Assembly: GCF_030684315.1 (NCBI RefSeq)
Contig: NC_081360.1
Span: 31,727,818 to 31,791,817 of the forward strand
DNA length: 64,000 nucleotides
Source: Stegostoma tigrinum
Taxonomy: Eukaryota
Direction of reading: 5' to 3'
The notes beneath the pieces were generated by a model. That model saw nothing but the letters and a program-made list of their open reading frames with translations. It was not told where the DNA came from and did no database searches. Positions 6,634-61,674 of the stretch are shown in pieces. Both the position numbers and the translations under genes were made by a program. Position 1 is the first letter of the stretch, and every line of letters begins with the position of its first letter.

Positions 6634-6730
6634 GATAATGGGAACTGCAGATGCTGGAGAATCCAAGATAATAAAGTGTGAAGCTGGATGAACACAGCAG
6701 GCCAAGCAGCATCCCAGGAGCACAAAAGCT

Positions 6731-8666: not shown

Positions 8667-8730
8667 AGCTTTTGTGCTCCTGAGATGCTGCTTGGCCTGC
8701 TGTGTTCATCCAGCTTCACACTTTATTATC

Positions 8731-11379: not shown

Positions 11380-13070
11380 CTTGTCCATCTAAACTTATGT
11401 TCTCTCTCCTCTGATATTTACTGCCCTTTTATTGTCAGTCCTTCCATGTGACACTCTAACCCAGTTTGATGGTCACGCCCTTGACCTTGTCATTTTCATG
11501 CTGTCCTACTAGTCCTATCATATCAATTGCAGATAGGCTATCTCTGATCTCTTGCTTGCACCACTCACCATTCACATTCCCTCCATACCTCAAAACCAAC
11601 TTCCTTCCATATCTGTCTCTAGAAAAATCTATCCTGCAATTTTACTTACAGCTGCAATTTCAAAATCTGAAACATCAAGCCTTTAGCTCTCTATTAACAT
11701 TTCTGCAACTACTGATTTACTCAACTGCACCCTCATCTCCACCTTGGTGTCCTAGTCACTGTTAAACCATATGCCCTTCCACTGTGGCTGGTTCCTCAAA
11801 ATGAACCACATCTCCAACTCCAAGGAACACAACTAAAACAGCAGATAACTGCTTTAGCCATCACTGCCAAATCTGATTGAATCACTAGTGGTCCTGCTGT
11901 TGCCAGTTAAACTTTGTCACTATTCCTGGATCATACTGAGAAGCCAGATTTCAGCTTCTTTTCTGTACTGCAGACTGTATTTCTAAGCCCTTCTTCCTGT
12001 TCACTCCTATCTTCGCTTTGAATGAGAATTATAATACTCTTGTCACAGATGACACAATCTAACCAGCTTGTTCTGCAATGTTTTCCACTTCCATTTCCAC
12101 TAGCCCACCTGACTAAATTCCTTAAATGTTTCCCTGTGCCCGAGCACTGCACTCTCATTTTTCTATTTTCTGCCATTATCTCCTAAAGCCTTCAACTGAA
12201 TTCATTTTGTCCATGAGATCTACCTTCTGGTCAAACTGATTACCCCTGCTGGCACCCACATCTGCTAATATTATGAATATCAGTTCTCTCTTTCTTCAGG
12301 TGTTGTTCTTTCCTCCTTTAAGTCTGCTTTAAATTACTCTGACTTCAAAAAAAAACTTGCCAACTATCAATTCATCTCCAACCTGCTTTCCTTTCTGAAG
12401 TCCTCGAAGACCAAATTCATTCCAAATTTTTTGATTGCTCCAATTAGGTTTCCACTCCTTCTGCAACCTCTGACATTACCATCCTCCAACATCTCTGCAC
12501 TGTTACTCAGCAGATTGAAACTGTTCTCTAATGATTCTATTCTTATCTAAACATAACCAGAGAATCATTCAAAATGGAAAACCGAAAGAACTGTGAATGC
12601 TGGAGTCAGAAGCAAGACCTGAAATTGCTGGAAAAATTCACCTGGTCTGGCATCTTTGTAGAGAAAGCAGAGTTAACTCTTGAGTCCAGTGACCCTTCTT
12701 CAGAAATGAAACAAGTTCTGAAGGAGGATCACTGGATCCCTGGAACTGAAATGTTAACTGCTTTCTCTTCACTGATGCTGCCAGGCTTGCCTTGTTTTTT
12801 CCCGCAATTTCTGGTTTTGCTTATCATTTGGAATGGCTTCTCTTCCTGCTCCAACAACATTATCTCTCATTTTTTCTAGGATCGATCTTTGACAATGCCT
12901 TCCCATTTCTCGTCTACATGCTGCTTTTTTCAACATCAGTTAAAGACAATGCAATTTTTTTTACATGTAGCCTGATAACACCCAGTTCTATTAGCACACT
13001 TCAATCGTTGCCTTATTATCAGACTCATTATTTATCATCCATTCATGAAAGAAGAGTTACAGAGTGACAG
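11380..13070 (+). mobile_element. Highly degraded L2/CR1-clade LINE fragments
   Basis: Pyrimidine-rich tract with a GHALDL-like endonuclease remnant near 11470 and RT-like remnants. It is interrupted by a fold-back element at 12579. Confidence 0.45.
12579..12822. mobile_element. Miniature fold-back Penelope pLTR element (family 2)
   Basis: Inverted arms are centred on ...CCCTTCTTCAGAA / TTCTGAAGGAGG..., with degenerate hammerhead cores. Degenerate TSD atcatt..aatgg. Confidence 0.7.
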
Positions 13071-13099
13071 GACCTAATGCAAATTTAGACATACGTAGC

Positions 13100-13210
13100 A
13101 AAGAGACAGCAGTGATGTCATTGGACAAGTAATCCAGACTCTCCAAGTTAATCTTCTGGGAAACATGGGTTAAAATCCCACCATGGCAGTGGTGAAATTT
13201 GAATTCACAA
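13100..13210 (+). mobile_element. SacSINE/Deu-type SINE head fragment
   Basis: AGTAATCCAGA...GGGTTAAAATCCCACCATGGCAG...AAATTTGAATTCA. The reverse complement of the same head is at 61880-62000. Confidence 0.55.
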
Positions 13211-14443
13211 AGGGCTGTTACGGTAGCACCGTCTCTGGTCCAACATAGCTGGCTTCTCGTCCCATCTGCCCCAGTCACATCATGAACATGTCCAAAAAGG
13301 TCAAGTAAATTAAGTACACCTCTCCACTTCTCTACCTCACTTGCCTTTTTTGAGACACTCCTCAAAGCCTCCCACTTTGATCAATTGTTCATTTAATTTC
13401 ATGTAGCTCTGTGTCCTGTTTTTCTTAAAATAATGCACTGTCCCAACACCTTTAATGTTTCATTACATTAAAAAGGGCTCCAGATATTGTTTCAGGTATA
13501 GCTTTAAGAAAGCTGTTGATGAATAAACAACTATATATCCTTGTTTTTCCAGGATGATCCTGGTGTATGGAGCAATTTTAGTAGAAGTGAGCAAGATCCA
13601 ATAATGTTTCATATGATTACATCTAGCCTGACTGTGAATGGCCAAACCAGTTGTGCACCACATGTACTAAATACCCCTTGAACTGAAGTAAAGCTGGGGC
13701 TAAATAACCAGAGAGAAAGGACATTATGGAGGTGAAAATAATCAATCAACAGGGGAGGCGACAGAGCAAGTGCACAGATCAAAAGATGAAGTAGCGCGGC
13801 TAACAGAAGGCCAATGAGCAGCTGAAAATAGCATTTTAATTGGAGTTTCTTCCAGGTTATACCTGGAAGGAACTGAGGGTAGGAGAGAGCTGAGAGCAAT
13901 TAGAAAAAGCAGCAAACAGATGTTGTCATATATATTAAATGATGGAAACAGGTCACAAGACAACACAAAGGACTGCCTTTAAACAGAATTATAGGAAGAG
14001 GAGGAGAAAAAGCAGTGAGATTGTGATTGTTGGTGTTTTCAATGAGGCAAAGCTGAAGGATGTAAAGAATGAGCATCTTATAATTAGGGTAGTCTTGGAC
14101 GGACAGTACAGAATGAGGATTTTAAAAATGAGCAACGATAAAGAAAATTCCTCACTTAGAATGTATTGAAATACTTGTGTGTTTCATGCAAAATGAACTA
14201 GTACTTCTGCAGATCACTGTAGTCATATTGACAGTCTTAGATGCATTTTCCAGATGTCCATGGCACATTTACCAAGTGATTTTACTGCCACCCTTTCAAA
14301 AGTTGGAGTTTTCAAAGTGAAATGAATCACTTCTGAAACAAGTTGACTAGTTTAGATTCATAATTTTATGTTTATTATTGGAAAATTCAACTAGCAATGA
14401 GATCAATCACAGTAAAACAGAAACTTGTGTGTTTGACATTGAA

Positions 14444-14449
14444 TTTATT
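14444..14449 (-). terminator. hspe1 polyadenylation signal
   Basis: AATAAA on the minus strand, about 100 nt after the stop. A second one is at 14371-14376. Confidence 0.7.
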
Positions 14450-14548
14450 GTACCAAAGCTGGAAAAAGTGGTATTTACAGACTAAGACAAAAAGACAGCA
14501 ACTTCATGGAATGGCCAGTTTCTTAAAACTGAAAGAAACATCCAACAT

Positions 14549-14599
14549 TCATGCTGTGTATTTTCCAAGAATATCTCCATCTCTAAACAAGTAGTAATC
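14549..14599 (-). CDS. hspe1: hspe1 coding exon 4
   Basis: DYYLFRDGDILGKYTA* after a ttcctcag acceptor. Confidence 0.96.
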   Translation of the reverse strand, partial: DYYLFRDGDILGKYTA

Positions 14600-16096
14600 C
14601 TGAGGAAGAAAATAAAAATCATCAAGGAGAAAGAAATCAATTTCTAAATACAGTCAAAAGAACTACTAAGACAATAGTACCAACCTTATCATCCAAGACA
14701 ACTTTAGTCCCTCCATATTCTGGGAGTAGAACTGTTTCACCAACTTTTACATTAACGGGGTGAATATCACCATTCTGAAATGAAAATGCAAATGATCCAC
14801 AAATTAATGTTTGTGAACAGTGCTCTAGCCAAAGTTTATAATGCACCGTACAGAAATTTGCACTTTTTGCTTATCTGTGAATTTGCAGCAAGTTACAAGT
14901 AGTAGTACTTGTAACTTGCTGCAAATTCACAGATAAGCTTTCTAATTATACCTAAGAGAAATTATACCTAAACTTAATAAAACAAAACAGCAGGCCACTT
15001 TGGAACACAGTATAAAAATATAATCTATTGGATCAGACTTTGTTAATGTAATAATCACAAGCATTTAGTTGATTAGGATTTTGTTTTCAGAAAACTACCT
15101 TTACTCGGCTGCCAGGTCCAACTGCTACAACTGTTGCTTGAAGTACTTTACCCTGGGATTTTTCTGGAAGCATGATGCCACCTTTTGTTACCTTCTCTGC
15201 TGCCACCCTTTCCACCAAAACACGGTCAAAAAGGGGCAGAAACTTTTTAAATGCCTGTCCTGCCTGTTAAAATAAAACGTTTCAGTTACCTATTAACCAA
15301 CAGGTTACAGACCACATATTGAAAGCTTTACCACTTCTGAGATCTACAAATAAAAAGGTCAACCCAAAATGAATCTTGAGAGAAAAAGTGATAGCTGAAT
15401 TTTTTTGTTATAAAGAACTAGATAACCTGTCCTTAGACTGTTAGCTTAGTTTTCACAGCTATTATGAATATATATAAAATAAACTCCTAAATGTAACATC
15501 ATTAGAAATAAAAAACCATGATCCAAATGCTGAAAATGTAACATATTACCTTAAGAAGGGCGTAAAACAGCAGCTGAAGATATTAATATGGAAAAAAATT
15601 ATTTCTCAACATAAATGTTGAGGACATTTAAAAATCAAGCTCATTTGACCTTGAAACTGTCCCCAACATCAAATCTAAAATCGTTAAATAAGTTGCACGT
15701 AACAGATCATCATTTTTATCCAAATGTCGGTGTGGTTACATAGTAACAAACGTAGTTCTTCAATCCATTACTTTTGTTACAAACTGATCTGTAGTAGCGA
15801 GACAGGTCACAAGCACATTTGTCCTTTCATTCATCAGGATTGTAACCAGTCGGTGGCCTGGCGAATCATTTCCCTGCTAGAGTAGGAATATTTCAAAAGG
15901 ATCATATTCCCTGTTTGAACTGAGCTATCAAACACGATAAATTATTTTGTATCCAGCACATGCTCAACTGGATTTAAAACAACGCAACTTACCATTTCAA
16001 CATCAGGAAGTCACAAAAATACTTATCAAGAACAATACGTAAATCGGTTTATTCTTCTCATTCAGTATATCACAAACAAAAACGTAAGCTTACCAT
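14549..16096 (-). CDS. hspe1: 10 kDa heat shock protein, mitochondrial (Hsp10/GroES), 102 aa, 4 coding exons
   Basis: Join of complement(16094-16096, 15099-15263, 14685-14774, 14549-14599) = 309 nt. All introns are GT-AG. Protein: MAGQAFKKFLPLFDRVLVER...KGGIMLPEKSQGKVLQATVVAVGPG...VLLPEYGGTKVVLDDKDYYLFRDGDILGKYTA*. Confidence 0.98.
14685..14774 (-). CDS. hspe1: hspe1 exon 3
   Basis: NGDIHPVNVKVGETVLLPEYGGTKVVLDDK, 90 nt, AG/GT bounded. Confidence 0.97.
14869..14938. repeat. Perfect 33-bp inverted repeat with 4-nt loop (hspe1 intron 2)
   Basis: GCTTATCTGTGAATTTGCAGCAAGTTACAAGTA-gtag-TACTTGTAACTTGCTGCAAATTCACAGATAAGC. Confidence 0.95.
15099..15263 (-). CDS. hspe1: hspe1 exon 2
   Basis: AGQAFKKFLPLFDRVLVERVAAEKVTKGGIMLPEKSQGKVLQATVVAVGPGSRVK, 165 nt. 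Confidence 0.97.
16094..16096 (-). CDS. hspe1: hspe1 exon 1 coding part (ATG only)
   Basis: GGC ATG|GTAAGC, matching the vertebrate ATG-only first exon. An alternative ATG|GTAAG lies at 15993-15995. Confidence 0.75.
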
Positions 16097-16099
16097 GCC

Positions 16100-16650
16100 T
16101 GCTACCACTTCCAGAAAGCACTAGAAATAAGACACCTCCCTGCAGCAGCAATTATGGCAGTCTCTCCACGTGAGGAAATACCTTCGAACCCGAAGACATG
16201 ACCTCGAACGTCAGAGGAATGTTACATTTCAGAGGCATTTTCTAAACTGAAATCCACACCTGAGCAAAACTTTGGCAGCATTTTACACTCATAAACACCC
16301 AAAGTAAATTTTGTTGCAATTTTAGAGAAGAAATCAAGAAATAAAATTATTGCGCAATAGAACTGTGCACTTTGACCCAACCTACGTTAAGCGTCTGGAA
16401 GTTTCTGGAACTCGAACCCCTGAAGCTGTATATGAACTGCTTCGCGTGCCTGCTTTTAGTTACAAGTTGGTACTAAATCCTATGAGTCTGGTGCTGGGAT
16501 ATCCATTGGTGGTAGTGAGTAGGTGGCTATTTGCTTGTCGAAATGTTTTGGCAGCTGTGTACCTGGAAGTGTTGGTGGTGTTAGAGTATCCAGAGTAAGG
16601 GGCGGGCGGAGACTTCTCCCCGCTGCAAACCCACGTGTTCTCCGAGTGAG
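16100..16650. promoter_or_regulatory. Bidirectional hspe1/hspd1 promoter
   Basis: Lies between the divergent genes. HSE gGAAgtTTCtgGAAc 16397-16411, gapped HSE 16108-16127, C/EBP palindrome ATTGCGCAAT 16349-16358, E-boxes CACGTG at 16167 and 16632, ATTGG near 16505 and a GC box near 16600. It should include the non-coding hspd1 exon 1 (donor uncertain: 16595 or 16646). Confidence 0.85.
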
Positions 16651-17148
16651 ACTTGGGCTCAGTCCTGGCGGTTGTGTAGTTTGCGTAGCTGTGGAATTTG
16701 GTTGAAGCTAGGGCTATTACTGTCTTGTTTACTACTTGTTTTTCTAAATAAACATTTTAGTAAGTGGTATTATGCAGAAATCGGTTTGGTTCGTATATTT
16801 TTGAAAAATTTTGCAAGCTACAGGCGTTTCCTTCTATGCCAATGGATTGAGACAATGAATGAAGACGAGGAATCAGAGTTCCAATGCTGGATGTTAGACA
16901 GACTAGCAGTTACATGTTATCTTTACAGACCTGAAGTCTCTCTTAGTCTAATTTGAGGCATATTAGTTACTTTTGTTTTGCATTCCTCGTTATTTTGCGG
17001 ATTGTTGAAGTACTTTAATTTGACCTTGTGACGTGTGTCCCCTAGCGACGTGTGGGGAGGCCCATGTTACTGACACCATACGCTTTTAAAAAATTTAACG
17101 TGTAGTTAAAAGGTTGATCGGTATTATTTCTCTTCTCCACTGCAGATA

Positions 17149-34913
<17,765 letters not shown>

Positions 34914-35141
34914 TTCCTTGGTCTCTTTTCATAGGAAAAGAGTTAGACATGTTAAATATGGTCAATTGAATGGCTGCTTCCACTGAGATTACCAGATGAA
35001 TGAATATAAACTAGGCTGAACAGACATAGCTCTATTGAAATATTTCTAATTAAGTTAATGCAGCCATGTTGGACTGTGCTGGATCTCAAGCAATTTGTTT
35101 ACTGCCCTCAGTCAGTACTATTGTAATTTATTTTATATTGA

Positions 35142-35339
35142 ATTAAAAATCCACATTTGTACATTCCTTGAAGTACTGAAAGTGTAAACCACCTGAAAGG
35201 CATTGGTTATGGTAACAGTGCTGTGCTGATATTAAGTAACAAATTAAATGATCAAGGCAGGTTTTCTGTGAAAAACAAGACTGATCTGTACTCTTTCCAG
35301 TGCAGTATGAGTATATCATGTAATATTGCCATAAATAAA
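35142..35339 (+). terminator. Candidate hspd1 polyadenylation signals
   Basis: ATTAAA at 35142-35147 and AATAAA at 35334-35339. Confidence 0.55.
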
Positions 35340-36247
35340 GCAGATGGCTCACATTTTGACTTGTGGGGTAGTTTAATAGTTAAGTGTTTTTTTTTCCTAA
35401 AAGATCATGATTGCTATTAAAATGATCAGATTGAGCATAGACAATTTAATTGTGCATTCCTGAATGCTCTATATACACTCAGATGTCAGTTTGGAAACCT
35501 TATGGAACTTTAGAACATTTAATGGGTTTTGAAATTTGTTTGGGAAATCTTAGGCACCTGGGTGGGTATGAGTGGGGAGGTTAGCAGGGTGATACTGTCT
35601 AGTGTTGTAATTACCACCTCCACTTCCTCTAGTAGCTCCTTCAATGCATGCATTATTTTATTTAGAGAGGTCCCTTTAAAATCTCCCTGTTTAAACACAT
35701 ACCCTGTAGTTTTGCACATTCAATCTGCAAAAAGGACTTAGCTCTATACCCCACCTGATTATGAACAAAGGTCACCCCTCTAGAATGGAACCTAGTAGGC
35801 CTAACTGGTGTCTTTTATACAGCTAGAATGTGACATCTCAAATTCTTATACTCAATGCATTGAGCAGTAAAGGCAAGTGTACCAAATGCTGCCTTTTACT
35901 ATTTTATACACCTATGGATTTTCTTCAAAGGAACTAGACACCTACATATGGGCATAACCCATGATACTACCATTAAGGGTAGACAATTCCTGCAGCACCT
36001 CACATTTGTCTAAATTAAACTGCACATGCCACATCTCAGCCTCCTTCACTGTCCACTACAGTAGCACTTTGTCATCTGCAACCCTTTTTTATTCACCCAC
36101 TTTTTCCTAAAAATGCTGATTAAACCATTAATAAAGTTTACAATAATAATGCTCATTATTAAATCTAGTATTTCATCTTTTTGGAAGTAGCTTACAACAA
36201 AATCATGAGGCACAAATAACATTTTAAAATCATAAATACACCATAAT

Positions 36248-36253
36248 TTTATT
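36248..36253 (-). terminator. Candidate distal coq10b polyadenylation signal
   Basis: AATAAA on the minus strand at the end of a repeat-free AT-rich tract of about 1.1 kb following the stop. Confidence 0.5.
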
Positions 36254-37355: not shown

Positions 37356-37523
37356 TTACGTCTGATGCACCTCGTGAAGCATAAGTTCTCGTGGGATGTT
37401 GGTTTCTGGACCATACATTTTCTTTGCTCTTCTTTCAAAGGCTGCTACCATCTGCTTAACAACTTCATCAAAAAAAACAGTGGCAAGTTGAGAGTGCAGC
37501 AAAGAACGGAATTCAAAAGAAAT
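37356..37523 (-). CDS. coq10b: coq10b exon 5
   Basis: [55 protein letters not shown]. Confidence 0.96.
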
Positions 37524-40500
37524 CTGTAGGTTTAAAAAAAAACACAACATTAAACAGAGTTCTCTTTTACACCTCAGAACAGTACAGAAAACTAACTTGT
37601 TTAACTTAATACAAATTTAAAATCCAAAAGGCAATTACATCATCTGTGATCTAACCAAAGTTATGAGAACTTTTCCACATGTTCCTGGACTTGTCAGTTT
37701 ACACCAATTTTTTGCTTCCAGAATTAGGTCTCTGCTTTAATCACCACGGTCTTGGTCATCTTCCCATTCATTCTTAATCCATGTTGGTATGGTCAAGTTG
37801 GACCAAAGGGTCTGTTTCCATGCTGTACATCCCTTATGACTATATAAATTCCTGAGGGGAGGTGCTCAGATCTTAACAGTAGTTCGAGGAGGATATAAGC
37901 AGGGTTTGTATAACTGCAGCATAACTTCTGTATCCTTGTATTCCAGTCCTCTTGGTATAAAAGGCGAGCATTCATTAGCTTTCTTGGTTATTTTCTACAC
38001 CTGCTAGTGACATTTGAAAGATCTACACACATGAACTCCCAAGTAACTTTGGACATATGTATTCAACTTTATACCATCTAGAAAGTACCCTGATCTATCC
38101 TTAGATAAGGTGGTGTAGAGCTGGATGAACACAGCAGGCCAAGCAGCATCAGAGGAGCAGGAAGGCTGACATTTCAGACCTAGACCCTTCTTCAGAAATG
38201 ACTTCAGAAGAAGGGTCTAAGCTCGAAACGTTGGCCTTCTTGCTCCTCTGATGCTGCTTGGCCTGCTGTGCTCCTCCAGCTCTGCACCTGGTTATCTCGG
38301 ATTCTCCAGCATCTGCAGTTCCTACTATCTCTGATCTATCCTTAGATCCTATAACTATTTGATCACATCATAAGCAGAGAGAACAGACAGAATTATCAAA
38401 GATCAACCAAAACCACAACAGGAAACAATAGAGAAAAAAAATGACTGTTACAATGGCCTGGATGCAACTGACCTATGAGAAAATATGGAAGGTCAGCACA
38501 AGACAGGTGAATATCCACAGCTGTCAACCTTCAGAGAACATAACACCAATGCACAAACATCATTTACAGATCTTAAAACAATTTGAGGTATAGCTGAAAG
38601 GAACCTTTACAGTACAGTCACTGTTGCGATGCAAGAACCTGGAGGACATCTAAAAATTTCCTTTTATCCCTGATTTGCGCTAAATTATGTTTATACATCA
38701 CCCCTAAGCTCATTGACTTACAATGGCTCCAAGACCACAAATAATTCAAATTTTAAAAATTGTCAACCTTATTTAAAAATCTCTCTAGGGTTTCACCCTC
38801 TCCCTAGTCTACAATGCCGGAAGATTTGCGTTTCAAAGTTCTCTACCTAGCCAATTCTGGCTTTTTTTGTGTTTCTTAATCACTACAACTTTGATCGTCG
38901 TGTTCAGCAGTCTTGCCCCAAACGTATGAATCCCCTAACCTGGCCTCTGATATTCAGGCCACTCTTTGCACATTTATCCTATATCTCAACTGCAGCAAGG
39001 TGGTAGAAATCAGAAGCAAAAGAATCAGTATCTTTGAAGAAAGTCAAATGTTTCATAAAGCCTAAAAACATTAAGTAAACACAAATGTAAAAAAACAAAA
39101 AACCTGGATGCTGGAAATCTGGCAAAAACAGAAGTTGGTGGACATATTTACAGAGCTAATATTTCACATCCACTTGTTATCTCAGATTCTCCAACATCTG
39201 CAGTTCCCATTATCTCTGATTTCAAATCCAGTGATTCTTTTGCCGGACACAAAGTTCTATAGAAGGGTCACTGGACTCAACGTTAACTCTGCTTTCTCTC
39301 CATGGATGCTGCCAGATTGCCGAGTTTATCCAGGAGTTTCTGTTTTTCGTTGTACAAGTGCAATTAATTGTTTTGTAAAAGGCAAATACATTTCAAATAA
39401 TACTGATCAAAGAATAAGCATTGACTATGACACCAAAAAATATTGCCAAGGAATTAGAAAGAGCATTATGGGTTTTGTGTTTATATTAAGTGTTCACTAG
39501 AACAAATCTGTTTAATTTTGGAGCCAAAGACTACACTTCACCCAGAGCACAGCAGACCCTCATTACTGCTGTAATTAGCCTCAACTGTGCACTCAAATTT
39601 CTACAGTGGAACATGAATCCACAATCTTCTGACTCAGACAAGAATATCACCATCGAGCCACAGCTGACACTTAGATCAGGCGTTCCTTCTCCTGTGAGGG
39701 ATTATTCTTCCTCATCTTTTCCATTAACAGAAATAGGCACCAATGCAAGTTGAAGAGCTTTTATGACAAAGATAACCTTGTTACCACCTATTTCCAAATT
39801 GAGAGAATACACAGTTATAAGTCTGCACAAAACTATTAGATGAGTACTCAACCAATGACAGGACACTGTAAAACTCATAGGAGCAGAGGGATCTTGGGGT
39901 GCTTGTCCACAGATTCCTAAATGTGGCAGGACAGATTAATAGGGTAGTTTAGGCAACATACAGGACACTTGTAATCTATGTGAAGACTGATAAAAGCAAG
40001 TAGGGGAGGTCATGTTGGAGCTGTACAAAAAAAAACTTCGAAGGCCACAGCTGAAGTGTGCCTGGAATTTTGGTCAACGGACTATAGGAAGGATGAGATT
40101 ACACTGGAAGAGGTGCAGAGGAGATTGATCAGGATCAGCAGCCATTCCCCTTAGATGAAGGATCAACAACAAAAGGGGCATAATGAAAGACAGGTGGTAA
40201 AGAGGATTTGAGAAAGATTCTCCCTCTCCCCCAGCATCCAGAGGGTGGTAAAAAAACCTGGAATGCACAGCCCCGGAGGGCAGTTGAGGCAGGAAACCTC
40301 AACTTTTAATAAAGTACTTGGATGAGTAACCAAAAAGGTTGTCACATTCAAGTGCTGAGAAATGGAACTAATGTAGATTTAGAGTATTTTTTGTCAGTCC
40401 ACACCGGAAAAGCATCTTCTATATTGTAGCATTCTACGGAATATCTACAAAAGAAGTTAGAGGATATCCAACATTAAACTTCAGGGATGGAGCAACAGCA

Positions 40501-52500: not shown

Positions 52501-52605
52501 AAGTTACCTGACGACGTGTTTAGACTGTCTCTCCCGGGCAAAGTGGGCCGGAAACTCGAAAACATCGCAAAAAACCCGCCGTAGAGGCCTACCGCTCCTC
52601 GCCAT
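37356..52605 (-). CDS. coq10b: Coenzyme Q-binding protein COQ10 homolog B, mitochondrial (START fold), 235 aa, 5 exons
   Basis: Join of complement(52508-52605, 44507-44653, 44228-44420, 41284-41385, 37356-37523) = 708 nt. Motifs [51 protein letters not shown] and [11 protein letters not shown]. Adjacent to hspd1 as in other vertebrates. Confidence 0.95.
38103..38332. mobile_element. Miniature fold-back Penelope pLTR element in a CR1 relic
   Basis: Inverted arms of about 90 bp meet at two degenerate hammerhead cores, with a one-sided tail. TSD CTGATCTATCCTTAGAT at 38090 and 38331. Confidence 0.88.
39088..39350. mobile_element. Family-2 fold-back pLTR element containing a roughly 46-bp family-1 tail insertion
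   Basis: Insert CTTGTTATCTC...CCCATTATCTCTG is flanked by ATTTCA(C/A)ATCCA at 39161 and 39219. Confidence 0.72.
39870..40440 (+). mobile_element. Degraded CR1 3' fragment
   Basis: [18 protein letters not shown] and [14 protein letters not shown] remnants. Confidence 0.65.
41284..41385 (-). CDS. coq10b: coq10b exon 4
   Basis: [34 protein letters not shown], 102 nt. Confidence 0.96.
42050..43000 (-). mobile_element. CR1/L2-clade LINE 3' fragment (same family as 28420)
   Basis: Reverse complement resembles 28420-29200. Degraded and interrupted. Confidence 0.6.
44228..44420 (-). CDS. coq10b: coq10b exon 3
   Basis: [26 protein letters not shown]...VRPHLVK, 193 nt. Confidence 0.96.
44507..44653 (-). 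CDS. coq10b: coq10b exon 2
   Basis: [13 protein letters not shown]...[24 protein letters not shown], 147 nt. Followed by an 86-nt intron with a GTTCGT donor. Confidence 0.92.
50500..51575 (+). mobile_element. CR1/L2-clade LINE fragment (same family as 28420)
   Basis: [19 protein letters not shown] remnant and a GGCAACCAGGGATGGGCA tail. Confidence 0.75.
51924..51947 (+). repeat. (AAAGAT)4 microsatellite
   Basis: Read directly from the sequence. Confidence 0.85.
52508..52605 (-). CDS. coq10b: coq10b exon 1
   Basis: GAAATGG Kozak context, Arg-rich presequence [18 protein letters not shown]...KHVVR, phase-2 donor AG|GTAACT matching exon 2, located in a CpG island. Confidence 0.85.
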
Positions 52606-52880
52606 TTCACCCTTTGTGAAGGCCGCCCGGCGCCCGCTCGCTCGCTGACGTCAACGGAGGCCCCGCCCATCCGTGCCGGCCGGTCCGCCCACAACTCTCC
52701 CGCAGGTCTCACGCCCCCGCCGGACTCTGCTTCCTGATTGGCCGCGACCTTCCCCGCCCCGGCGGAGGGGTGTGCCTGGTCGCCAGGCAACGTGGGACGT
52801 CAGGTCGTGCGACGTCATAATGTTTCCACTGGCAGGTTATGTCAAGGTTTGTCACGGGATTCGGCGGCGCTGCCAGTGGT
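52606..52880 (-). promoter_or_regulatory. coq10b CpG-island promoter
   Basis: Full CRE TGACGTCA at 52646-52653, further GACGTCA near 52796 and 52811, GC boxes near 52661 and 52752, CCAAT (ATTGG 52737-52741). Confidence 0.8.
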
Positions 52881-53619
52881 TGGATTCACTTCGAGACTAA
52901 CATGTCTTAGACATATATGGTAACTGCTTTTAAAAATACCCTGCAAATGTGTCCAACATAATATTCAGATAGCCAGAATTAAACTATTGCCCCATTACAC
53001 ATCAGATCCAATTTTGCTGTTCACACAGGTATTCCTTTCCACTTCCCATGAAGGGGAAATAAACTTTTTTTCTCAAATTTATTGAATAATCAGGGATTTA
53101 AAGTGTGAAAGGTCCAATTCTCGTCGAAATAAACAAACATGCCGAAAGTAGCAATTTGGGGAAATAAGTGTGCCGTGCTTTTGGAAATACATTTTATTTT
53201 CTTGACCACCTGCTGTGCGAGGGGTTGGGATGTTGTGTGTAATCCAAATCGAAGATTCCCTAACAATTCTAACCAAGAGGGTGCTAATAAGAATTGGGGA
53301 TGTAGTTAGCTCAAGGAGGCTAATTTTCAGGCGCCCCTGATATGCTTCAACGGTATAAAACAGTGAATTGTTTTAGATTATTCCTTACAATTTATTCTTA
53401 CCGCTATCATCATTATTAGAGCTTTATTGTGCACTTTGACACCCATGTGATAGTTTAAAATATTATGCTGTGCATATTGAAATCATAGCGGAGTCTTTTG
53501 AGAGGTCCATCAGTGTGGGGGTACACTTAAGTTGGTCCCATTCCGCAGGTGCTTGCTTACACAGTATCCATCATTCAAGAAAGTAAAGCAAATAGACCTC
53601 ACCCTAACGGCTTCCTCAG

Positions 53620-53900
53620 CAAAGTATCGGGGACTTGCATTCTTATAACGCTTTTGCCTCCTGGACGTCTTCAACCACTTTACAGCCAATGAAGTACTTT
53701 TCTGAAGTATAGTCACTGGTGTAATGGAAGACAAGTGGCAGCCAATTTGCATTGCAAATTCTCACAAATGGCAATGAGAAAGACTAATTGATCAATTTTT
53801 ATGCTAATTATGATCCACTATTGGACAACAGTTTTTTCAACTGTACCATGGGATCTTTCACATCCATCTGAGCATAATGCCTGGTCTGATGAGGAGACAT
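53620..53900 (-). mobile_element. Deu-domain SINE (AmnSINE/SacSINE-like) fragment
   Basis: CACTTTACAGCCAATGAAGTACTTT...GGCAGCCAATTTGCA matches the reverse of the Deu core as recalled, not searched. Confidence 0.65.
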
Positions 53901-54205
53901 GCATACTAAAATAATCAGATGCGGATTCTCATCTGATTTTCTAATTCCTCATCAGAGTTTGATGTGTTGTGAAGGTATCCCCTACAAGTAAGATAATAGA
54001 TGTGGATAACATATTTACCCCCACACCAGTTCCAAAACTGCAAGATCTGAGAATCTTTATATATTGACATGTTTAGAACATATATCAGGCATAATAGTTC
54101 TTGGCAAAGCCAATTTTGAATCACAGGTTCCCATCTTTTTAGGCTTATAGATTGAAAAGGATCAGGAAAGTTGAAATTTGAAAAAGCAGTTTGCTCCCTG
54201 AAATC

Positions 54206-54420
54206 ACAAGGTGAAGAGCTGGATGAACACAGCAGGCCAGGCAGCATCAGAGGAGCAGGAAGGCTGACGTTTCAGGCCTCGGCCATTCTTCTGAAGAAGG
54301 GTCTAGGCCCAAAACGACAGCCATCCTGCTCCTCTGATGCTGCTTGGCCTGCTGTGTTCATCCAGTTCTACACCTTGTTATCTCCAATTCTCCAGCATCT
54401 GCCGTTCTTGCTATCTCTGA
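54206..54420. mobile_element. Miniature fold-back Penelope pLTR element
   Basis: Inverted arms meet at CTGAAGAAGGGTCTAGGCCCAAAACG, with a one-sided tail. TSD TCC(C/A)TGAAATC at 54195 and 54421. Confidence 0.85.
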
Positions 54421-54841
54421 TCCATGAAATCCTCTATTTCTCCTAACCGCAATGTTTACTGTCTATTTAACCAAAGAGTGCATTCTATTCCACTTTGACT
54501 ACGTTCAACTTCATTTGGTTGTTAAATAACTCTCTGAACAATTAATTTGCTTTGTGGATGATCAGAGTCATAACACATAGAAAGAAAAGTTGTCTGACCA
54601 AATGTTAATTACTTAATTACTAGTCAAGATGAATTAATACGCGATACGACATTATTGGTCCATCATGTTTTGCAAATGATAGCCTGTACACTCTACACAG
54701 TATCGTAAAGCAAAACAAAATGTATAAAGTGCAGAACTAAGTAAAATGCTTAGGAATGAATTGTACAAATGAAAAGGAAAAGACATGCATTGTTAAAACA
54801 CATTTCATGATCACTTTGTATCCAAAAGTACTTTAGAACCA

Positions 54842-55172
54842 ATAGAACATAGAACTGTACAGCACAGTACAGGCCCTTCAGCCTAGGATGTTGTGCTGAA
54901 CTTTTACCCGAAACCTAAGGTCTATCTAACCTCCACCCCTACCTTATACTATCATCCATATGCCTATCTAATAGCCGCTTAAATGCCCCTAATGAGGCCA
55001 ACTCCACTACCTTCTCCAGCAATGCTTTCCACGCCCCTACCTTCTCTGAGTAAGGGATCTACCTCTGACATCTCCCCTATATCTACCCCCACTCACTTTA
55101 AAACTATGTGCCCTCGTAATAGCTACATCCATCCTCAGAAAAAGTCTCTGGCTGTCCACTCTATCTATACCT
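54842..55172 (-). mobile_element. CR1 3' end
   Basis: ATAGAAC tandem tail. Antisense reads GIDRVDSQRLF...HSFKVSGGRYRGDVRG. Confidence 0.85.
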
Positions 55173-55454
55173 TGGAGGAGTGTCATAACCTGGCTGAACA
55201 GGTAGTTAAAAAATAACCATAAACTTAATTGATGGGCTATGTGGTGCATTAGTACTGTCCATACCTCTGGGCCTAGAAGCCTGGGTTCAAGTCCCAACTA
55301 CAGCAGAGGTGTATTATAACATGTCTGGATAGGTTGATTTTTTTAAAATAATGGGCAGGACACATTGAAATAAATAGGAAAATTGCTTAAAATTGAGCAT
55401 ATGATCCATCATGCATATGATGGCTCTTTAAGAGATCTCATACATACAAACAGA

Positions 55455-55940
55455 TGATACAGCACAGAAACAGACCCTTCAATCCAACTTGTCCATGCCA
55501 ACTAGATATCCTAAATTAATCTACTCCCATTTGCCAGTATTTGGCCCAAATCCATCTAGTATTGTGTAATGAGGCAGAGTTAATTATTAATATCATAGAA
55601 AGGTGTCCACTAGGAAGTAGTGGTCATAATACAATTGCCCCTTGTAATTGTCCCTTAAATCCTTTTAATCTTTCCCCTGTCACCTTAACACTATGACCTT
55701 TAGTTTTGAACACCCCCCACCCACCATAGGGAAAAGACCTTGGCTATTCACCCTATCCATGCACCACATAATTTTATAAACTTTTATAAGGTCACCCCTC
55801 AGCTTTGGCTCCAGAGAAAATAGCTCCAGCCTATTCAGCCTCTCCTATAGCATAGATGCTCCAACCCTGACAACACCCTTGTAAATCTTTTTTGAACACT
55901 TTGAAGTTTTACAAATTCTTTCCTATGGCAAGGAGGCCTT
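55455..55940 (-). mobile_element. CR1 3' fragment
   Basis: Antisense remnants RLNRLELFSL and RGDLIKVYKIM. Confidence 0.7.
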
Positions 55941-56618
55941 TTTAAATTTCTAAAATAGCCCCGAGTCTCACAAATTTACTATTATACTTTGCAATACTAT
56001 ACACCTCTTGATTTAATTTATTACCATCTTTAAATTCCTTCGTGAAGCATTCATGGATCTTTCCCACAAATTTTTGGTTGAGTATTTTGAATTGTTTCTT
56101 TTATGGATTCCCACTGATTTTTTGTAACCATACCTTTTAGTCTATTTACCTAACCAACTAGAGCCAGTTTTCTCTCCACATGTTCATGATTGATTTTGTC
56201 TAAATTTAAGATTATTACAGTGATTAGTGTACGCCATTTCAAACTTTGGAACTCAGTTGTATTATGACCACTACTTACCAGTCGACCTCTTACTATGACA
56301 TTAATAATTAACTCTGCCTCATTGTACAATACTAGATCTAAAATAACTTTACCCTTAATTGATTCCATAATACATTGGTCTGGGGAACTGTCACAAAAAT
56401 ATTCTAAAACCTCATCTCCCAAACCTTCTTTGAAATTTGATTTGTCTAGACTATCTGTTTAAAGTTCCCCATAACTATTATATTTGCTATGTTACAAGCT
56501 ACAATAATTTATTGTTTAATGTTCTGTTAAATGATAAATAGTGTTAGGGAGCCTATTAACTACTCCCATGAATGTTTTCTGGCTCTTGATATTCCCAGAC
56601 TCTACCCACAGAGGAAGT

Positions 56619-56880
56619 GAATCATAGAATCCGTACAGTGTGGAAACAGGCCATTCAACCCAACAAGTCCACAGTAGTTTTCTGAGCAGCATACCATCCA
56701 GACTTGCCATTCCCACCTTTTCCCTGCAATCCCCAGGCTAATCCACCTAACCTACACATCCCTGGACACTATGGGTAGTTTAGCATGGCCAATGTATCTA
56801 ATCTGCACATCTTTGTATTGTGGAAGGAAACCAGAACACCTGGAAGAGACCCAAACAGACACAGGAAGAATGTACAAATT
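56619..56880 (-). mobile_element. HE1/V-SINE 3' part
   Basis: Reverse complement of the HE1-type tail and V-domain. Confidence 0.8.
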
Positions 56881-57051
56881 TTATTTCCTGATTTTTGGAG
56901 CAAAGGTCCTTCTATGCAATTAGTTCTATTTCCTTGTTCTTTCCCCATTGTCGTGCCAATTTTTATCCTTCAAATATTTATATTTCTCTTGAAAGCTCTT
57001 ATTGAATTAGCTCCCAACATCCTTTCAAGAAAAGCATTCCAGTTCTGCAAT

Positions 57052-60000
57052 GAATCAGAGAGCTATATAGCACTGAAGCAGACCCTTTAGCCCCATGCCA
57101 ACCCCATATCCTGACTAAATCTAGTTCCATCTGCCAGCATTTTGCCCATGTCCCTCTAAAGCTTTCTTATTCATTTACATATCCTGATGCTATTTAAATG
57201 TTGTAAATGTACCAGCCTCCACCATGGGGGTGGCACAACATTAGCACTGCTGCTTCACAGTGCCAGGGACCCAGATTCAATCCCAGACTTGGATGACTGT
57301 TTCCTTCCGCAGTCTAAAGACATGCAAGTTAGGTAGATTGGCCTTGCTAAATTGCCCATAGTATCTGGGGATGTGTAGATTAGGTGGATTAGCCATGGGA
57401 ACTACAGTGATAGGGAGTGGGGTGAGTCTGGATGGGATGCTTCTCTGTAAATTGGATGTGGACTTGTTGGTCTTAATGGCCTGTTTCCGCACTGTTGCAA
57501 TTCTGTGATTCACTTCTTCTGGCAGCTCTTTCCATCACCCTCTGCATGAAAAAGTTGCCCCATAGGTCCCTTTTAAATCTTGCCCCTGTCACCTTAAACC
57601 TATGATCTCTAGCTTTGGATTCCCCCAGCCTGGGGAAAAGACCTTGGCTATTCATTCTATCCATGCCCCTCATGATTTTATAAACCTCGATAAGGACACC
57701 CCTCAGCATCCAATATTCCAGGGAAAATAGCCCCAGCCTGTTCAGACTGTCCTGAAAGCTCAGACCCTCCAACCCTGGCAACATCCTTGTAAAAACCAAA
57801 AGAACTGAAGTTGCTGTAAATCGGGAAAAAAAAACAGAAGTAACTGGACCGGAAACATCAACTCTTATTTTCCTTTATGGATGCTGCCAGGCCTGCTGAG
57901 CTTTTCCAGCTACTTCTTTACTGAACTATTTCAATTTTCACGACATCCTTCCTAGAGCAGGGAGATAAGAATTGCACACAGTATTCCAAAAGTATCTGAA
58001 CCAATGTCCAATACAGCTGCAGCATGACCTCCCAACTCCTGTACACAATGCACTCACCAATAAAGGCAAACGTACCAAATGCCTTCTTCACTATCCTGCC
58101 TATCTGTGACTGCACTTTCGAGAAACTATGAACCTGCACTCCAAGGCCTCTTGGTTCAGCAACACTCCACAGGCTCTACCATAAAATGTATAAATTGCAT
58201 CCTGATTTGCTTTTCCAAAATGCAACACCTCATAATGATCTAAATTAAGTCCATCTGCCACTCTTCAGCCCATTGGCCAATCTGATTAAGATCTTCTTGT
58301 GCTCTGAGGTAACCTTCTTTGCTGTCCACTATGCCTCCAATTTTGGTGTCACCTGTAAACTTCCTACCTCTTATATTCACATCCAAATCATTTATATAAA
58401 TGTTGAAAAGCAGTGAACCCAGCACTGATCTTTGTGGCACACTGCTGGTCACACGTCTCCAGTCTGAAAAGCAACTCTCCACCACCACCCTCTGTCTTCT
58501 AACTTTGAACCAGTTCTGTGGCCAAATGTCTAGTTCTCCCTGTGTTCCATGCGATCTAAGCAGTCTACCATAAGGAACTGTGTTGAATGCCTTACTCAAA
58601 TCCATACAAATCACATCCACTGCTCTGCCCTCATCAATCCTCTTTGTTACTTCTTCAAAAAAACTCAGTTAAGCTAGTGAGACACGATTTCCTGCCACAA
58701 AGCCATGTTGACTATCCCTAATCAGTCCTTGCCATTCCACCTACATGTGAACCCTGTCCCTCAGGATTCCCTTCAACAACTTGCCCACCACCAATATTAG
58801 GTTTACTGGCCTATAGTTCCCTTGCTTTTCCTTACTGCCTTTCCTAGACTGTGGCATCATATTAGCCAACCTCCAGTCTTCTGCCACCTTGCCTGTGGCT
58901 ATCAACGATACAAATATCTTAGCAAAGGGCCAGCAATCACAGCACAATTTCATTACCTGCACCAGCTGAGGTCACTGTGAAAATGCCTCATCTCAAACTC
59001 TCCCCTCTCCTTAGGTAATGACAGATTAAACCCCACCAGAGTTCTAGGGTACACCTGATCAGGTGGCAGAGATTAATTCACCATTTTGTGTTTTCAGACA
59101 TCCAGCACCTCCTCTGCTGTAATATGGACAATTTTCGAGATATCGCTATGGGGATGGGGATGGGGATGTTCTCTATCTTTCATATCCTGCTCCACAGTAA
59201 ATGCTACGCAAAATACTTGTTTAGTATCTCCCCCATCTCTTACAGTTCCACATGTAGGCAACCTGCTAATCCTTAAGGGGCCCTATTTTCTCCCTAGTTT
59301 ACTTTTTTGGCCTTTATGTGTCTGTGGAATCCCTTTGGATTCTCCTTAGCCCTATTTGCCAAAGCTATCTCATGGCCTCTTTTTGCCTTCCCGATTTCCC
59401 ACTTAAGTATACTTCTACTGTCTTTCCACTCTTCCAGGCGTTCACTCAATCTCTGCTCTCTATACCTAACATATGCTTCCTTCTTATTCTTGACCAAAAC
59501 ATCCACTTCTCTAGTCATTCAGCATTACCCACACCTACCAGCCTTGGCATTCGCCCTAAAAGGAAAATACTGTCTCTGGACTCACGTCATCTCATTTTTG
59601 AAGGTTTCCCATTTTCCAGCCATTTCTTTACCTTCGAAAATCTGCCCTCCAATCAACTTTTGAAAGTTCTTGCCTAATACTGTCAAAATTGGCCTCCTCC
59701 AATTTAGAACTTTAACTTTTAGATCTGGTCTGTCCTTTTCCACCATTGTTTTAAAACGAATAGAATTATGATCACTGGCCTCAAAGTGCTCCCCCACTGA
59801 CACCTCAGTCATCTGCCCTGCCTTATTTCCCAAGAGAAGTCAAGTTTTGCTCCTTTAGTAGTAAGTACATTCACATACTGATTCAGAAAATTTTCTTGTA
59901 CACATTTAACAAAGTCCTCTCCATCCAAGCCCTTAACACTATGGCAGTCTCAGTCTGTCTTTGGAAATTTGAAATGCCCTACCATAACCATCCTATTATT

Positions 60001-60330
60001 CTTATAGGTAACTGGGATCACGTTACAAATTTGTTTCTCAATTTCCCGCTGACTGTTAGGAGAGTCTATAGTACAATACCAGGAAGGTGATCATCCCTTT
60101 CTTATTTCTCAGTTCCACCAAATAACTTCCCTGGACGCCTAAGTACAGCTGCAGTGCTTTCCTTAATAAAAAAAGTCACTCACCCTCCTCTCTTGCTCCC
60201 CTTTCTATAGCTTCTCTCCCTTGGAACAATAGGCCACTAGTCCTGTCCATCCCTGAGCCACATCTCTGGAATAGCTATTCCATCCCAGTCCTATATTCCC
60301 AACCATGCCCTAAGTTCATCTGCCTTACCT
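57052..60330 (-). mobile_element. Long degenerate CR1 LINE ORF2 (endonuclease to 3'UTR) with nested insertions
   Basis: Successive minus ORFs: EHFEASDHNSI, KENPKGF, EDWRLAN..GNYRPV, DLSKAF, YINDLD, KFTGDTKIGG, EVYKIMRGMDR. Nested SINE at 57226-57510 and pLTR element at 57793-57918. Confidence 0.92.
57226..57510 (+). mobile_element. HE1/V-SINE nested in CR1
   Basis: Head TTAGCACTGCTGCTTCACAGTGCCAGGGACCCAGATTCAATCC and an HE1-type tail. Confidence 0.8.
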
Positions 60331-60912
60331 GTAAAGTAAATTATTCGAATCTTGCCTCCTGTTCTTTTATAAGTTACCTTAATTGTATATCCTGCGATTA
60401 CCAACTCTCTGCCACTAGAAACTATTCCTTATAATTAATTTGAACAAAATGCTTCATAATTTTGAATAAGCCTATCTAACCTCCTCTTAATTTTCTGAGT
60501 TTTAAAGGAAACAACCCAGGTTCACATGTAACTGAAGTCTCACATTTCCAGTACTATTCTCCCAAATGTCCTCCAACCCTCCCTGAGATAGACATTGTTA
60601 AAGTATGGTGCCCACAGTTGGACATAATACTCCAGCTGATGCCTATCCAATGTTTTATGTATGTTTAGCACAACTTCCTTGTTTTTGCTCATTAAGTCCC
60701 AGCTTTTTTAAAGAGAAGGATCATATGTGTTTTTTGAACCTATCTTGCCAAACTCAAATATTGATTCAAAGATAGTAGAAACTGCAGATGCTGGAGAATC
60801 TGAAATAACAAGGTGTAGAGCTAGATGAACGCAGCAGGCCAAACAGCATCAGTGGAGCAGGAAAGCTGACGTTTTGGGTCTGGATTTCTGAAGAAGGATC
60901 CAGACAGGAAAT

Positions 60913-61144
60913 AGTATCAGAGATAATGGGAACTGCAGATGCTGGAGATTCCAAGATAATAAAATGTGAGGCTGGATGAACACAGCAGGCCAAGCAGCAT
61001 CTCAGGAGCACAAAAGCTGACGTTTCGGGCCTAGACCCTTCATCAGAGAGCTCTGATGAAGGGTCTAGGCCCGAAACGTCAGCTTTTGTGCTCCTGAGAT
61101 GCTGCTTGGCCTGCTGTGTTCATCCAGCCTCACATTTTATTATC
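60913..61144. mobile_element. Young miniature fold-back Penelope element: perfect 94-bp palindrome plus one-sided tail
   Basis: Arms 60955-61048 and 61051-61144 are exact reverse complements. TSD CAGACAGGAAAT at 60901 and 61145. Confidence 0.93.
61019..61080. ncRNA. Two back-to-back minimal hammerhead ribozyme motifs (one per strand)
   Basis: Plus strand 61053-61080 and minus strand 61019-61046 both read CTGATGA-AGGGTCTAGGCCC-GAAA-CGTC. Confidence 0.7.
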
Positions 61145-61674
61145 CAGACAGGAAATGTCAGTTTTCCTGTTCCTCTGTTGCTGCTTGGCCTGCTCTGTTC
61201 ATCCAGCTCTAAACCTTGTTATCTCAAACTCAAAGATTGTATGTCTACCCACAGGTTTCTCTGTTCCTGTATTCTTATCTCCCAACAGTCTTTAAGAGAA
61301 GTAAATTTAAATGGTAGAGACCAGTTGCACAAATGTAATACAAAGTATAACTTTAAAATAGCATTGCATCATAATTTTAAATAATACTTTGACTTGATAC
61401 ATATAGTTTAGCAAAACATGACAACTTAACAGATGAATAGATTTTTTTAACTCATAAGATGGCTAAACAATCGAAGGTGCTAGGAAATACAAGATTAAAT
61501 TGCTCAGAGATAGTAAGAACTGTCGACTAAATTGCTACTGTGTCAGAAATTTTATATTCTGTCAAGTTTAAATGGGAAGTTTAATCATTTGAGTTTAAGA
61601 TGCTCAAGATTTTGGTTATCTGTCATATGATCTTTTTATATGGTTACGTCAAATTTTGTTTGTTTCTTTAATTC

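What the first reader, a model, noticed from the sequence alone, without database searches (positions are those of the whole stretch)
12579..61225. Family of miniature fold-back Penelope derivatives whose symmetry centre falls at the hammerhead
Seen: at least six short elements (12579, 30142, 38103, 54206, 60764, 60913; also 39088 and 57793) from two pLTR families share one plan. Inverted pLTR arms meet within or just 5' of the CUGA(U/A)GA core, a tail of about 33-40 nt is on one side only, and most have 11-17 bp TSDs. Inference: random 5' truncation would not place the turn at the same motif repeatedly. Possible explanations are RT fold-back at the ribozyme structure, a ribozyme-delimited template, or a true non-autonomous retrozyme/MITE-like family mobilised by Penelope in cartilaginous fish. 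I do not know whether this has been described.
Basis: partly seen in the sequence, partly recalled or inferred. Interest (0 to 1): 0.78.

Follow-up and report, generated by a model that had tools for sequence, protein, structure and literature searches.

The report
Penelope fold-backs mark the transcription start
These tiny mirror-image insertions of a Penelope jumping gene occur by the thousand and turn about 30 bases below a TATA-like box rather than at the ribozyme, so they are likely two short DNA copies that ran off the capped start of the element's RNA and were joined head to head.

Summary
The elements are real; the ribozyme explanation is not supported. Head-to-head miniatures with a one-sided tail and target duplications are common: 5,728 exact near-symmetric copies of one subfamily. 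Their centres vary (29 types in 50 listed), so they are built anew at insertion. Arms end at a cliff 4 nt 5' of CUGANGA: 10,754 arms at -4, 39 at -9, 358 at +13 (filters differ slightly). Non-inverted copies start there too. A third hammerhead-bearing family, absent from the window, turns at -16 (298 elements; only 6 near the core). In all three families the end lies 29-31 nt below a TATA-like box. An extra G precedes the end in family B (48 of 100, p=5e-4) but not significantly in subfamily A2. Best reading: the turn is the pLTR transcription start. Reverse transcription primes internally at two sites about 95 and 130 nt downstream, runs off the capped 5' end, and the two cDNAs are joined. 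No RNA data could test this. New variant of the known inverted-pLTR insertion, with a testable mechanism.

The parts
60917..61144 (.). Young family-A1 fold-back miniature: tail-bearing arm (minus strand, -4..+130) joined to tail-less arm (plus strand, -2..+92)
   Evidence: 15-bp duplication at 60898-60912 and 61141-61155; 40 of 40 scored genome hits 99-100% identical over nearly the whole element (top-ranked of 763 candidates)
60764..61226 (.). Older family-A2 fold-back miniature (arms about +12 and -3), split by the 60917 insertion
38107..38330 (.). Family-A2 fold-back miniature, 17-bp target duplication
54206..54418 (.). Family-A2 fold-back miniature, right arm from -2
30142..30283 (.). Asymmetric family-A2 miniature (arms -4 and about +13), 11-bp duplication
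12579..12822 (.). Family-B fold-back miniature (arms -6 and -4), decayed 14-bp duplication
39088..39347 (.). Family-B miniature, right arm from -4, with a family-A tail fragment inserted at 39174-39220
57793..57917 (.). Family-B head-to-head pair without the hammerhead core (arms about +91 and +14)
6634..8734 (.). Long inverted family-A1 insertion; both arms pass through the putative promoter
8605..8611 (+). TATA-like box 34 nt 5' of the hammerhead core, 30 nt 5' of the arm cliff (inferred promoter element)
   Evidence: the motif stands at -34..-36 in 51 of 70 long family-A arms
8635..8666 (+). Inferred transcription start (8635 = -4) followed by the minimal type I hammerhead motif (core from 8639; predicted cut after 8666)
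   Evidence: sequence; motif features as in PMC4209133; cleavage not tested
24015..25772 (+). 5'-truncated family-A1 parent copy: RT, CX4CxxC linker, GIY-YIG, 3' pLTR with hammerhead and tail
   Evidence: Pfam RVT_1 E=0.0019 and GIY-YIG E=0.0021, both below the curated cut-off

Best explanation
The miniatures are Penelope insertions whose arms end at a fixed point 29-31 nt below a TATA-like box, likely because that point is the capped 5' end of the element's RNA and two short cDNAs would run off it and be joined head to head. Shown: the sharp common 5' end, its spacing to the TATA-like box in three families, its independence from the hammerhead position, two 3' ends about 35 nt apart, varied junctions, target duplications. 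Inferred: (a) the pLTR holds a TATA plus initiator promoter that starts 4-5 nt (families A, B) or 16 nt (family C) before the hammerhead core; (b) the element's protein cuts both target strands and primes one cDNA on each, at the two internal initiation sites, as reported in vitro for the anole element (PMC11167929); (c) when the sites used are those nearest the RNA 5' end, the cDNAs are at most about 135 nt, like strong-stop DNA; (d) the enzyme often copies the cap as an extra C, which leaves a G at the junction and lets two cDNA ends pair through GC; (e) end-joining trims or pads the ends, giving the shorter second arms and small fillers. The miniatures lack the TATA box, so they are predicted to be dead-end products, not a self-copying family.
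For: Cliff: 57 of 210 family-A arms end in -9..-1, 5 in -60..-10, 68 in +1..+60, 70 beyond -60; family B 26, 9, 45, 11 of 96. Genome-wide exact patterns: 10,754 arms at -4 (12 of 100 listed rows are point variants of long arms), 39 at -9, 358 at +13. Solo, non-inverted copies start at the same place. Family C: TATA box at -47, predicted end about -16/-17 from the A/B spacing; farther arm ends at -16..-18 in 45 of 50 listed elements of 298, and only 6 elements turn near the core. TATA-like motif at -34..-36 in 51 of 70 long A arms, 6 of 13 long B arms, -45..-49 in 9 of 12 long C arms. The end shifts from -4 to -5 in subfamily A1b, whose box lies at -35 (3 listed junctions). Extra base before family-B arms at -4: G 48, T 24, A 28 of 100 (hand count) against background 0.32/0.25/0.43, p=5e-4; T, expected from snap-back, is not enriched. 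A1 at -4: G 70, A 4; control at +13: G 19, A 23 (hand counts, p=3e-9). Extra G from the cap is reported for full-length L1 insertions (PMC11702581, passages). 3' ends are bimodal near +90-98 and +123-130; tail on one arm only in 53 of 66 pairs. Pairing is assortative: long/long 17, short/short 45, mixed 9 of 71 (about 30 mixed expected at random, hand arithmetic). Two arms of one element are 0.94 alike against 0.87 between elements (42 pairs); one element has the same six A-to-G changes in both arms, as expected from one edited sense RNA. L187 shows pLTR, tail, then an ORF of 364 codons starting at +167, so RNA from -4 would be the mRNA.
Against: No RNA evidence: no raw RNA reads were on offer. 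The G excess is not significant in subfamily A2 (G 23 of 83, p=0.82; G against T p=0.10). In A1 and C the G can also be read as a templated base, a snap-back base or target microhomology: fillers G, AG, GAG, AGAG mirror the arm start, and in 4 solo copies the G is part of the target duplication. 12 of 49 A pairs and 6 of 15 B pairs have both arms ending downstream of +3, which needs trimming or early stops. Some elements have arms that differ at subfamily markers (36 one-sided against 73 shared variant sites), so two RNAs or later change are needed there. The family-A box is a non-canonical TATTTAT that also resembles a 3' splice region. TATA, initiator and TCT consensus and the 30-nt spacing are recalled textbook values, not tool results. 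Only 33 of 66 pairs show an exact duplication of 8 nt or more.
Confidence: 0.75

Rival explanations
1. The fixed end is an RNA 5' end or reverse-transcription stop made some other way (a processing cut, or a hard stop at a sequence or bound protein), not the transcription start.
For: A cliff shows only that copying ends there. In family B the end coincides with the outer base of hammerhead stem I. No RNA start data. G excess absent in A2.
Against: The end keeps a 29-31 nt distance to a TATA-like box while the distance to the core changes from 4 to 16 nt. The upstream sequence is C-rich in A but not in B or C. Long arms pass the point freely (at least 69,528 exact copies) and then truncate rarely. 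Extra G in B.
Confidence: 0.11
2. A non-autonomous, self-propagating palindromic family (retrozyme- or MITE-like) is copied as a unit by Penelope proteins.
For: 40 of 40 scored hits to the 60913 element are 99-100% identical including the centre, with unrelated flanks and their own duplications.
Against: Those hits were ranked by identity. Unbiased listing: 29 centre types in 50, the 60913 type 4 of 50. The same centre occurs with the tail on either arm (window 60917 against L149; L129 and L132 against L130) and on different subfamily backgrounds. No tandem units, no TATA box in the miniature. A minor share of re-copied miniatures is not excluded.
Confidence: 0.06
3. The hammerhead sets the turn, by fold-back of the cDNA on its hairpin or by self-cleavage of the template.
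For: In families A and B the end lies 2-6 nt from the core; the core and stem III region can pair into a hairpin (z=0.5-0.7, not unusual); 1 of 66 pairs has the matching junction.
Against: Family C turns at -16. Starts at the predicted cut product (+29) are 2 of 210. In the anole element, ribozyme mutants did not change insertion products in vitro (PMC11167929).
Confidence: 0.03
4. Self-priming on an antisense template makes the junction palindrome, as proposed for rotifer Penelope (PMC3846280).
For: Junction fillers that mirror the arm start; published proposal.
Against: Does not explain the sense-strand TATA spacing, the extra G in B, the two sense-strand 3' initiation ends on opposite arms, solo copies with the same end, or shared A-to-G changes read on the sense strand.
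Confidence: 0.03
5. Miniatures are long inverted insertions that later lost their centre by deletion.
For: Long inverted insertions are common (17 in 1.02 Mb); shorter second arms could reflect later deletion.
Against: Deletion would not stop both arms at one base, add a G, or affect copies with no inverted partner; intermediates ending in -60..-10 are rare (5 of 210; 39 at -9 genome-wide).
Confidence: 0.02

Closest known systems
Inverted-pLTR insertions of endonuclease-bearing Penelope-like elements (PMC3846280, PMC8557442, PMC2377424)
   Same: Head-to-head inverted 5'-truncated copy, 30-40 bp tail at one end, target duplication, palindrome at the inverted junction.
   Different: Here both arms are reduced to 95-135 nt, number in the thousands and end at one base tied to a TATA-like box; the passages read treat the truncation as variable and explain the palindrome by antisense self-priming.
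Internal two-site priming of the anole Poseidon element PAc (PMC11167929)
   Same: Two initiation sites that bound the tail; both target strands cut and extended; uncleaved RNA as template; 5' truncation of the RNA shortens the product.
   Different: In the text read, inverted genomic products, a 5' cliff, the transcription start and cap copying are not discussed.
Minimal hammerheads of metazoan Penelope-like elements (PMC4209133)
   Same: Minimal type I motif with an extra base after A9 and a palindromic stem III; pairs on opposite strands 100-700 bp apart were noted in Schistosoma.
   Different: No link to insertion junctions or transcription starts in the parts read.
Non-LTR retrozymes (bioRxiv 10.64898/2026.07.22.740005)
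   Same: Short, non-coding, hammerhead-bearing, pLTR-derived.
   Different: Retrozymes are defined there as head-to-tail tandem units with a ribozyme in each; these are head-to-head and cannot be released by two same-strand cuts.
L1 twin priming and cap-derived G (PMC11702581); strong-stop DNA of LTR elements (recalled)
   Same: Two primings on the two target ends give an inversion; full-length cDNA carries an extra G; a short cDNA runs off the RNA 5' end.
   Different: Here both cDNAs copy the same stretch from two programmed internal sites, so the product is a palindrome; the short cDNAs are integrated and not transferred.

Membership tests
Endonuclease-bearing Penelope-like element (parent, family A) | RT followed by C-terminal GIY-YIG endonuclease in one ORF | tested here: met
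   RVT_1 and GIY-YIG hits in order in a truncated copy, both weak (below curated cut-offs)
Endonuclease-bearing Penelope-like element (parent, family A) | Partial tandem with pLTR preceding the ORF | tested here: met
   L187
Endonuclease-bearing Penelope-like element (parent, family A) | Hammerhead motif in the pLTR; optional 30-40 bp tail; inverted 5' copy | tested here: met
   Rfam gave no hammerhead hit
Neptune/Nematis clades | CX2-5CxxC linker before GIY-YIG | tested here: met
   CX4CxxC in the ORF; feature from PMC8557442
Neptune/Nematis clades | Placement in an RT phylogeny | not tested
   no tree built; the clades of families B and C were not tested
Non-LTR retrozyme | At least two consecutive head-to-tail units each with a hammerhead | tested here: not met
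   units are head-to-head
Non-LTR retrozyme | Circular or monomer RNA from self-cleavage | not testable with these tools
   no raw RNA reads
MITE (non-autonomous DNA transposon) | Uniform copies from one founder with terminal inverted repeats | tested here: not met
   29 centres in 50; ends are staggered by the tail
MITE (non-autonomous DNA transposon) | Fixed-length target duplication of a DNA transposase | tested here: not met
   variable 8-17 bp
Copy of a capped Pol II RNA reaching its 5' end | Fixed 5' end about 30 nt below a TATA box | tested here: met
   consensus and spacing recalled
Copy of a capped Pol II RNA reaching its 5' end | Extra G at the 5' junction | tested here: inconclusive
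   enriched in B (p=5e-4), confounded in A1 and C, not significant in A2
Copy of a capped Pol II RNA reaching its 5' end | RNA start mapped at that base | not testable with these tools

The most novel reading that the evidence does not exclude
Penelope elements integrate by programmed twin priming on a capped sense RNA: a two-headed RT-endonuclease starts one cDNA from each target strand at the two tail-bounding sites, both run to the cap, and cap-copied ends anneal. This one rule would explain the inverted pLTR, the one-sided tail and the junction palindrome across the group, and would let the promoter of any Penelope family be read to the base from genome sequence alone.
Probability: 0.45. 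Interest if true: 0.78.

Novelty: new variant of a known kind. Interest (0 to 1): 0.6.

Why it matters
How Penelope-like elements make their inverted ends and one-sided tail has been open for many years; the published proposal is self-priming on an antisense RNA. These thousands of miniatures act as a natural read-out: they point to a capped sense RNA, a TATA-type promoter just above the hammerhead, and two cDNAs joined at their 3' ends. That gives base-level predictions for 5' RACE and for the existing in vitro system. It would also show cap copying by a telomerase-related RT, and it warns repeat annotators that abundant near-identical palindromes here are not MITEs or microRNA genes. Not found in 7 literature searches; Repbase, Dfam and most subscription papers could not be checked.

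Tried and rejected
RNA test: no RNA holder listed; laying four contig sets on 60500-61500 was swamped by other copies and showed neither starts nor an empty allele; no evidence either way. Rfam found no hammerhead, only sub-threshold microRNA-hairpin matches. Folding of the arm is not better than shuffles. The search for shared sequence after the tail in the unbiased sample found no ORF junction for A or B; L187 supplied one later. An apparent shared 5' end deep in the ORF was an artefact of my query's end. The long/short split failed (2 of 211 called long), so the A-to-G against T-to-C rates (12.2 against 6.2 per 1000) are for all young arms together and are not used as a test. Pfam gave no hit for two short host exons. 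Cap G in A2 was not significant. Snap-back as the sole source of the extra base was rejected for family B only. Three look-ups of earlier findings returned nothing. Supplements of the papers were not read; Fig. S2 of PMC11167929 may show 5' ends of anole copies and could bear on novelty.
Full report
Numbering: the C of the hammerhead core CUGANGA is +1; upstream bases are negative. Family names A (subfamilies A1, A1b, A2), B and C are my labels. The window lies at G000:C9:31727818-31791817 in a 3.2-Gb genome.

Observation. The eight places hold head-to-head arms of Penelope pLTR sequence. Seven have one arm ending at -6..-2; 57793 lacks the core. Exact target duplications flank 30142 (11 bp), 38103 (17 bp) and 60913 (15 bp); 12579, 54206 and 60764 have imperfect ones. 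The 60913 element is nested in the 60764 element. The parent family A has an RT, a CX4CxxC linker and a GIY-YIG domain (both Pfam hits weak), which fits the Neptune/Nematis description in PMC8557442 (passages). The arm carries a minimal type I hammerhead with the features given in PMC4209133 (parts 1-2 of 4); Rfam does not detect it.

Unbiased sample. I took ten 100-kb blocks at round coordinates on ten contigs (one has 43,869 N) and added the window: 1.02 Mb of sequence, 323 arms (A 210, B 96, C 17). Family-A 5' ends: 57 in -9..-1, 5 in -60..-10, 68 in +1..+60, 70 beyond -60; family B: 26, 9, 45, 11. This is a peak followed by a step, the shape expected from a template end. Of 66 close head-to-head pairs (6 from the window), the farther arm ends at -9..+3 in 31 of 49 A, 9 of 15 B and 0 of 2 C pairs; 53 have the tail on one arm only, 10 on neither, 3 on both; 33 show an exact duplication of 8 nt or more. 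Many solo arms start at the same place. 3' ends cluster near +90-98 and +123-130.

Genome-wide counts (exact patterns, so lower bounds; reversed-pattern controls 0). Near-symmetric A1 centres: 5,728. Long arms through the region: 69,528. Arms starting at -4: 10,754 (12 of 100 listed rows are point variants of long arms); at -9: 39; at +13: 358. The -9 and +13 patterns have three filter positions next to the junction and the -4 pattern one, so the ratio is approximate.

One family or many events? The identity search returned 40 of 40 scored hits nearly identical to the 60913 element, with unrelated flanks (9 compared) and their own duplications. But the first 50 elements listed by position show 29 centre types: -4/-4 seven times, +1/-4 five, -4/-2 (the 60913 type) four, -4/G/-4 four, two types three times, one twice, 22 single (hand count). 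The same centre occurs with the tail on either arm and on different subfamily backgrounds. Recurrence is what a sharp end gives; the palindrome is made at insertion.

Ribozyme or promoter? Long A arms carry a TATTTAT box at -34..-36 (51 of 70), B arms a TATA-like box near -35 (6 of 13, older copies), C arms a TATA box at -45..-49 (9 of 12). The bases at the cliff resemble initiator or TCT motifs (recalled consensus). From the A and B spacing I expected family C to turn near -16/-17 if the promoter sets the end, and at the core if the ribozyme does. Family C has 298 near-symmetric fold-backs; in the 50 listed the farther arm ends at -16..-18 in 45, further out in 2 and shorter in 3 (hand count; the pattern sees -5 to about -20). 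Only 6 elements turn near the core. Five inspected copies have the same plan with duplications, four with a clear one-sided tail. In C most arms are long (9 of 100 listed break between -10 and -28, 5 of them at -16/-17). A caveat: C has a templated GC at -17/-16 that can serve as microhomology, but the longer palindrome around it gives only 1 of 50 junctions. Starts at the predicted cleavage product (+29) are 2 of 210; the hairpin fold-back junction is 1 of 66.

Extra base. Before A1 arms at -4 the base is G 75, T 20, A 5 of 100 (G 70, A 4 without long arms), against G 19, A 23, C 58 at +13 (hand counts; p=3e-9). For a C-start this G can be cap, snap-back or microhomology: fillers are G, AG, GAG, AGAG, and in 4 solo copies the G belongs to the target duplication (50 loci examined, 6 not parsed). 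An A-start separates the readings: cap predicts G, snap-back T. Family B gives G 48, T 24, A 28 of 100, G above background (0.32, p=5e-4), T not. A2 gives G 23, T 11, A 49 of 83, not significant. So cap copying is supported in one family and open in the others. PMC11702581 (passages) reports an extra G at most full-length L1 junctions and its use as microhomology. A2 rows also show short direct repeats of the arm start, as from repeated priming at a physical cDNA end (resembles polymerase-theta joining, recalled).

One RNA or two? Inverted family-A elements pair like with like: 17 long/long, 45 short/short, 9 mixed of 71 (about 30 mixed expected at random; some mixed cases may be unrelated neighbours). 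Arms of one element are 0.94 alike against 0.87 between elements (42 pairs). One element (G000:C26:10072405-10072639) has six identical A-to-G changes in both arms, as from one edited sense RNA or one source locus. But 36 marker sites differ between arms against 73 shared, and L122 joins arms of two subfamilies, so two templates are used at times.

Mechanism. L187 shows the pLTR and tail followed by an ORF starting at +167, so an RNA from -4 is the mRNA and carries both initiation sites within its first 135 nt. PMC11167929 (parts 1-2 of 4 and passages) reports for the anole element that both target strands are cut and extended, that synthesis starts internally at two sites bounding the tail, that 5' truncation of the RNA shortens the product, and that ribozyme mutants do not change it. 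Put together (inference): one cDNA from each target strand, one with and one without the tail; sites near the RNA 5' end give miniatures, sites at a downstream pLTR give long arms; the two 3' ends are joined. Whether the RNA is the mRNA of a tandem master or a short transcript from any truncated copy is not resolved.

Known and new. Inverted pLTRs, the tail and junction palindromes are described (PMC3846280, passages and Discussion; PMC2377424 passages; PMC8557442), and opposite-strand hammerhead pairs were noted (PMC4209133). Retrozymes are tandem by definition (bioRxiv 10.64898/2026.07.22.740005, part 1 of 5 and passages). I found no paper tying the inverted junction to the transcription start or cap in seven searches; Repbase, Dfam, most subscription papers and the supplements were not seen. 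Earlier AI notes on other genomes, read after my tests, reach part of the same view and are not independent support. Verdict: real, a new variant of a known insertion type, ribozyme link incidental, promoter link likely (0.75), interest 0.6.

Noticed in passing
L187 (G000:C9:64979326-64982477): Head-to-tail repeat with a period of 1,257 bp made of an internally deleted family-A1 unit (pLTR from -68, hammerhead, tail, 5' part of the ORF); a retrozyme-like tandem with two same-strand hammerheads.
   Followed up: partly
G000:C26:10072405-10072639: Fold-back miniature whose two arms share six A-to-G changes on the sense strand, suggestive of an A-to-I edited template; young arms overall show A-to-G about twice as often as T-to-C.
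   Followed up: partly
rows, e.g. L146, L147: Five of 100 rows are long A1 arms with G in place of C at -5, possibly a small subfamily or a cap-derived base fixed by template switching.
   Followed up: no
window 14869-14938: Perfect 33-bp inverted repeat with a 4-nt spacer, A/T-rich, with no similarity to the Penelope arms; only sub-threshold microRNA-family matches.
   Followed up: no
window about 27000-30580: Short open stretches at 29882 and 30471 look like exons of the mitochondrial chaperonin HSP60 gene (name recalled; Pfam gave no hit on the short pieces); the 30142 element lies between them.
   Followed up: partly
window 60898-61155, 39174-39220; L187: Penelope pieces repeatedly insert into other Penelope arms (young miniature in the hammerhead of an older one; family-A tail in a family-B element).
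   Followed up: no
L176-L180: Family C, a third hammerhead-bearing Penelope-type family not in the window; the ATG inside its core opens a frame through the arm, as described for the anole element. Clade not tested.
   Followed up: partly
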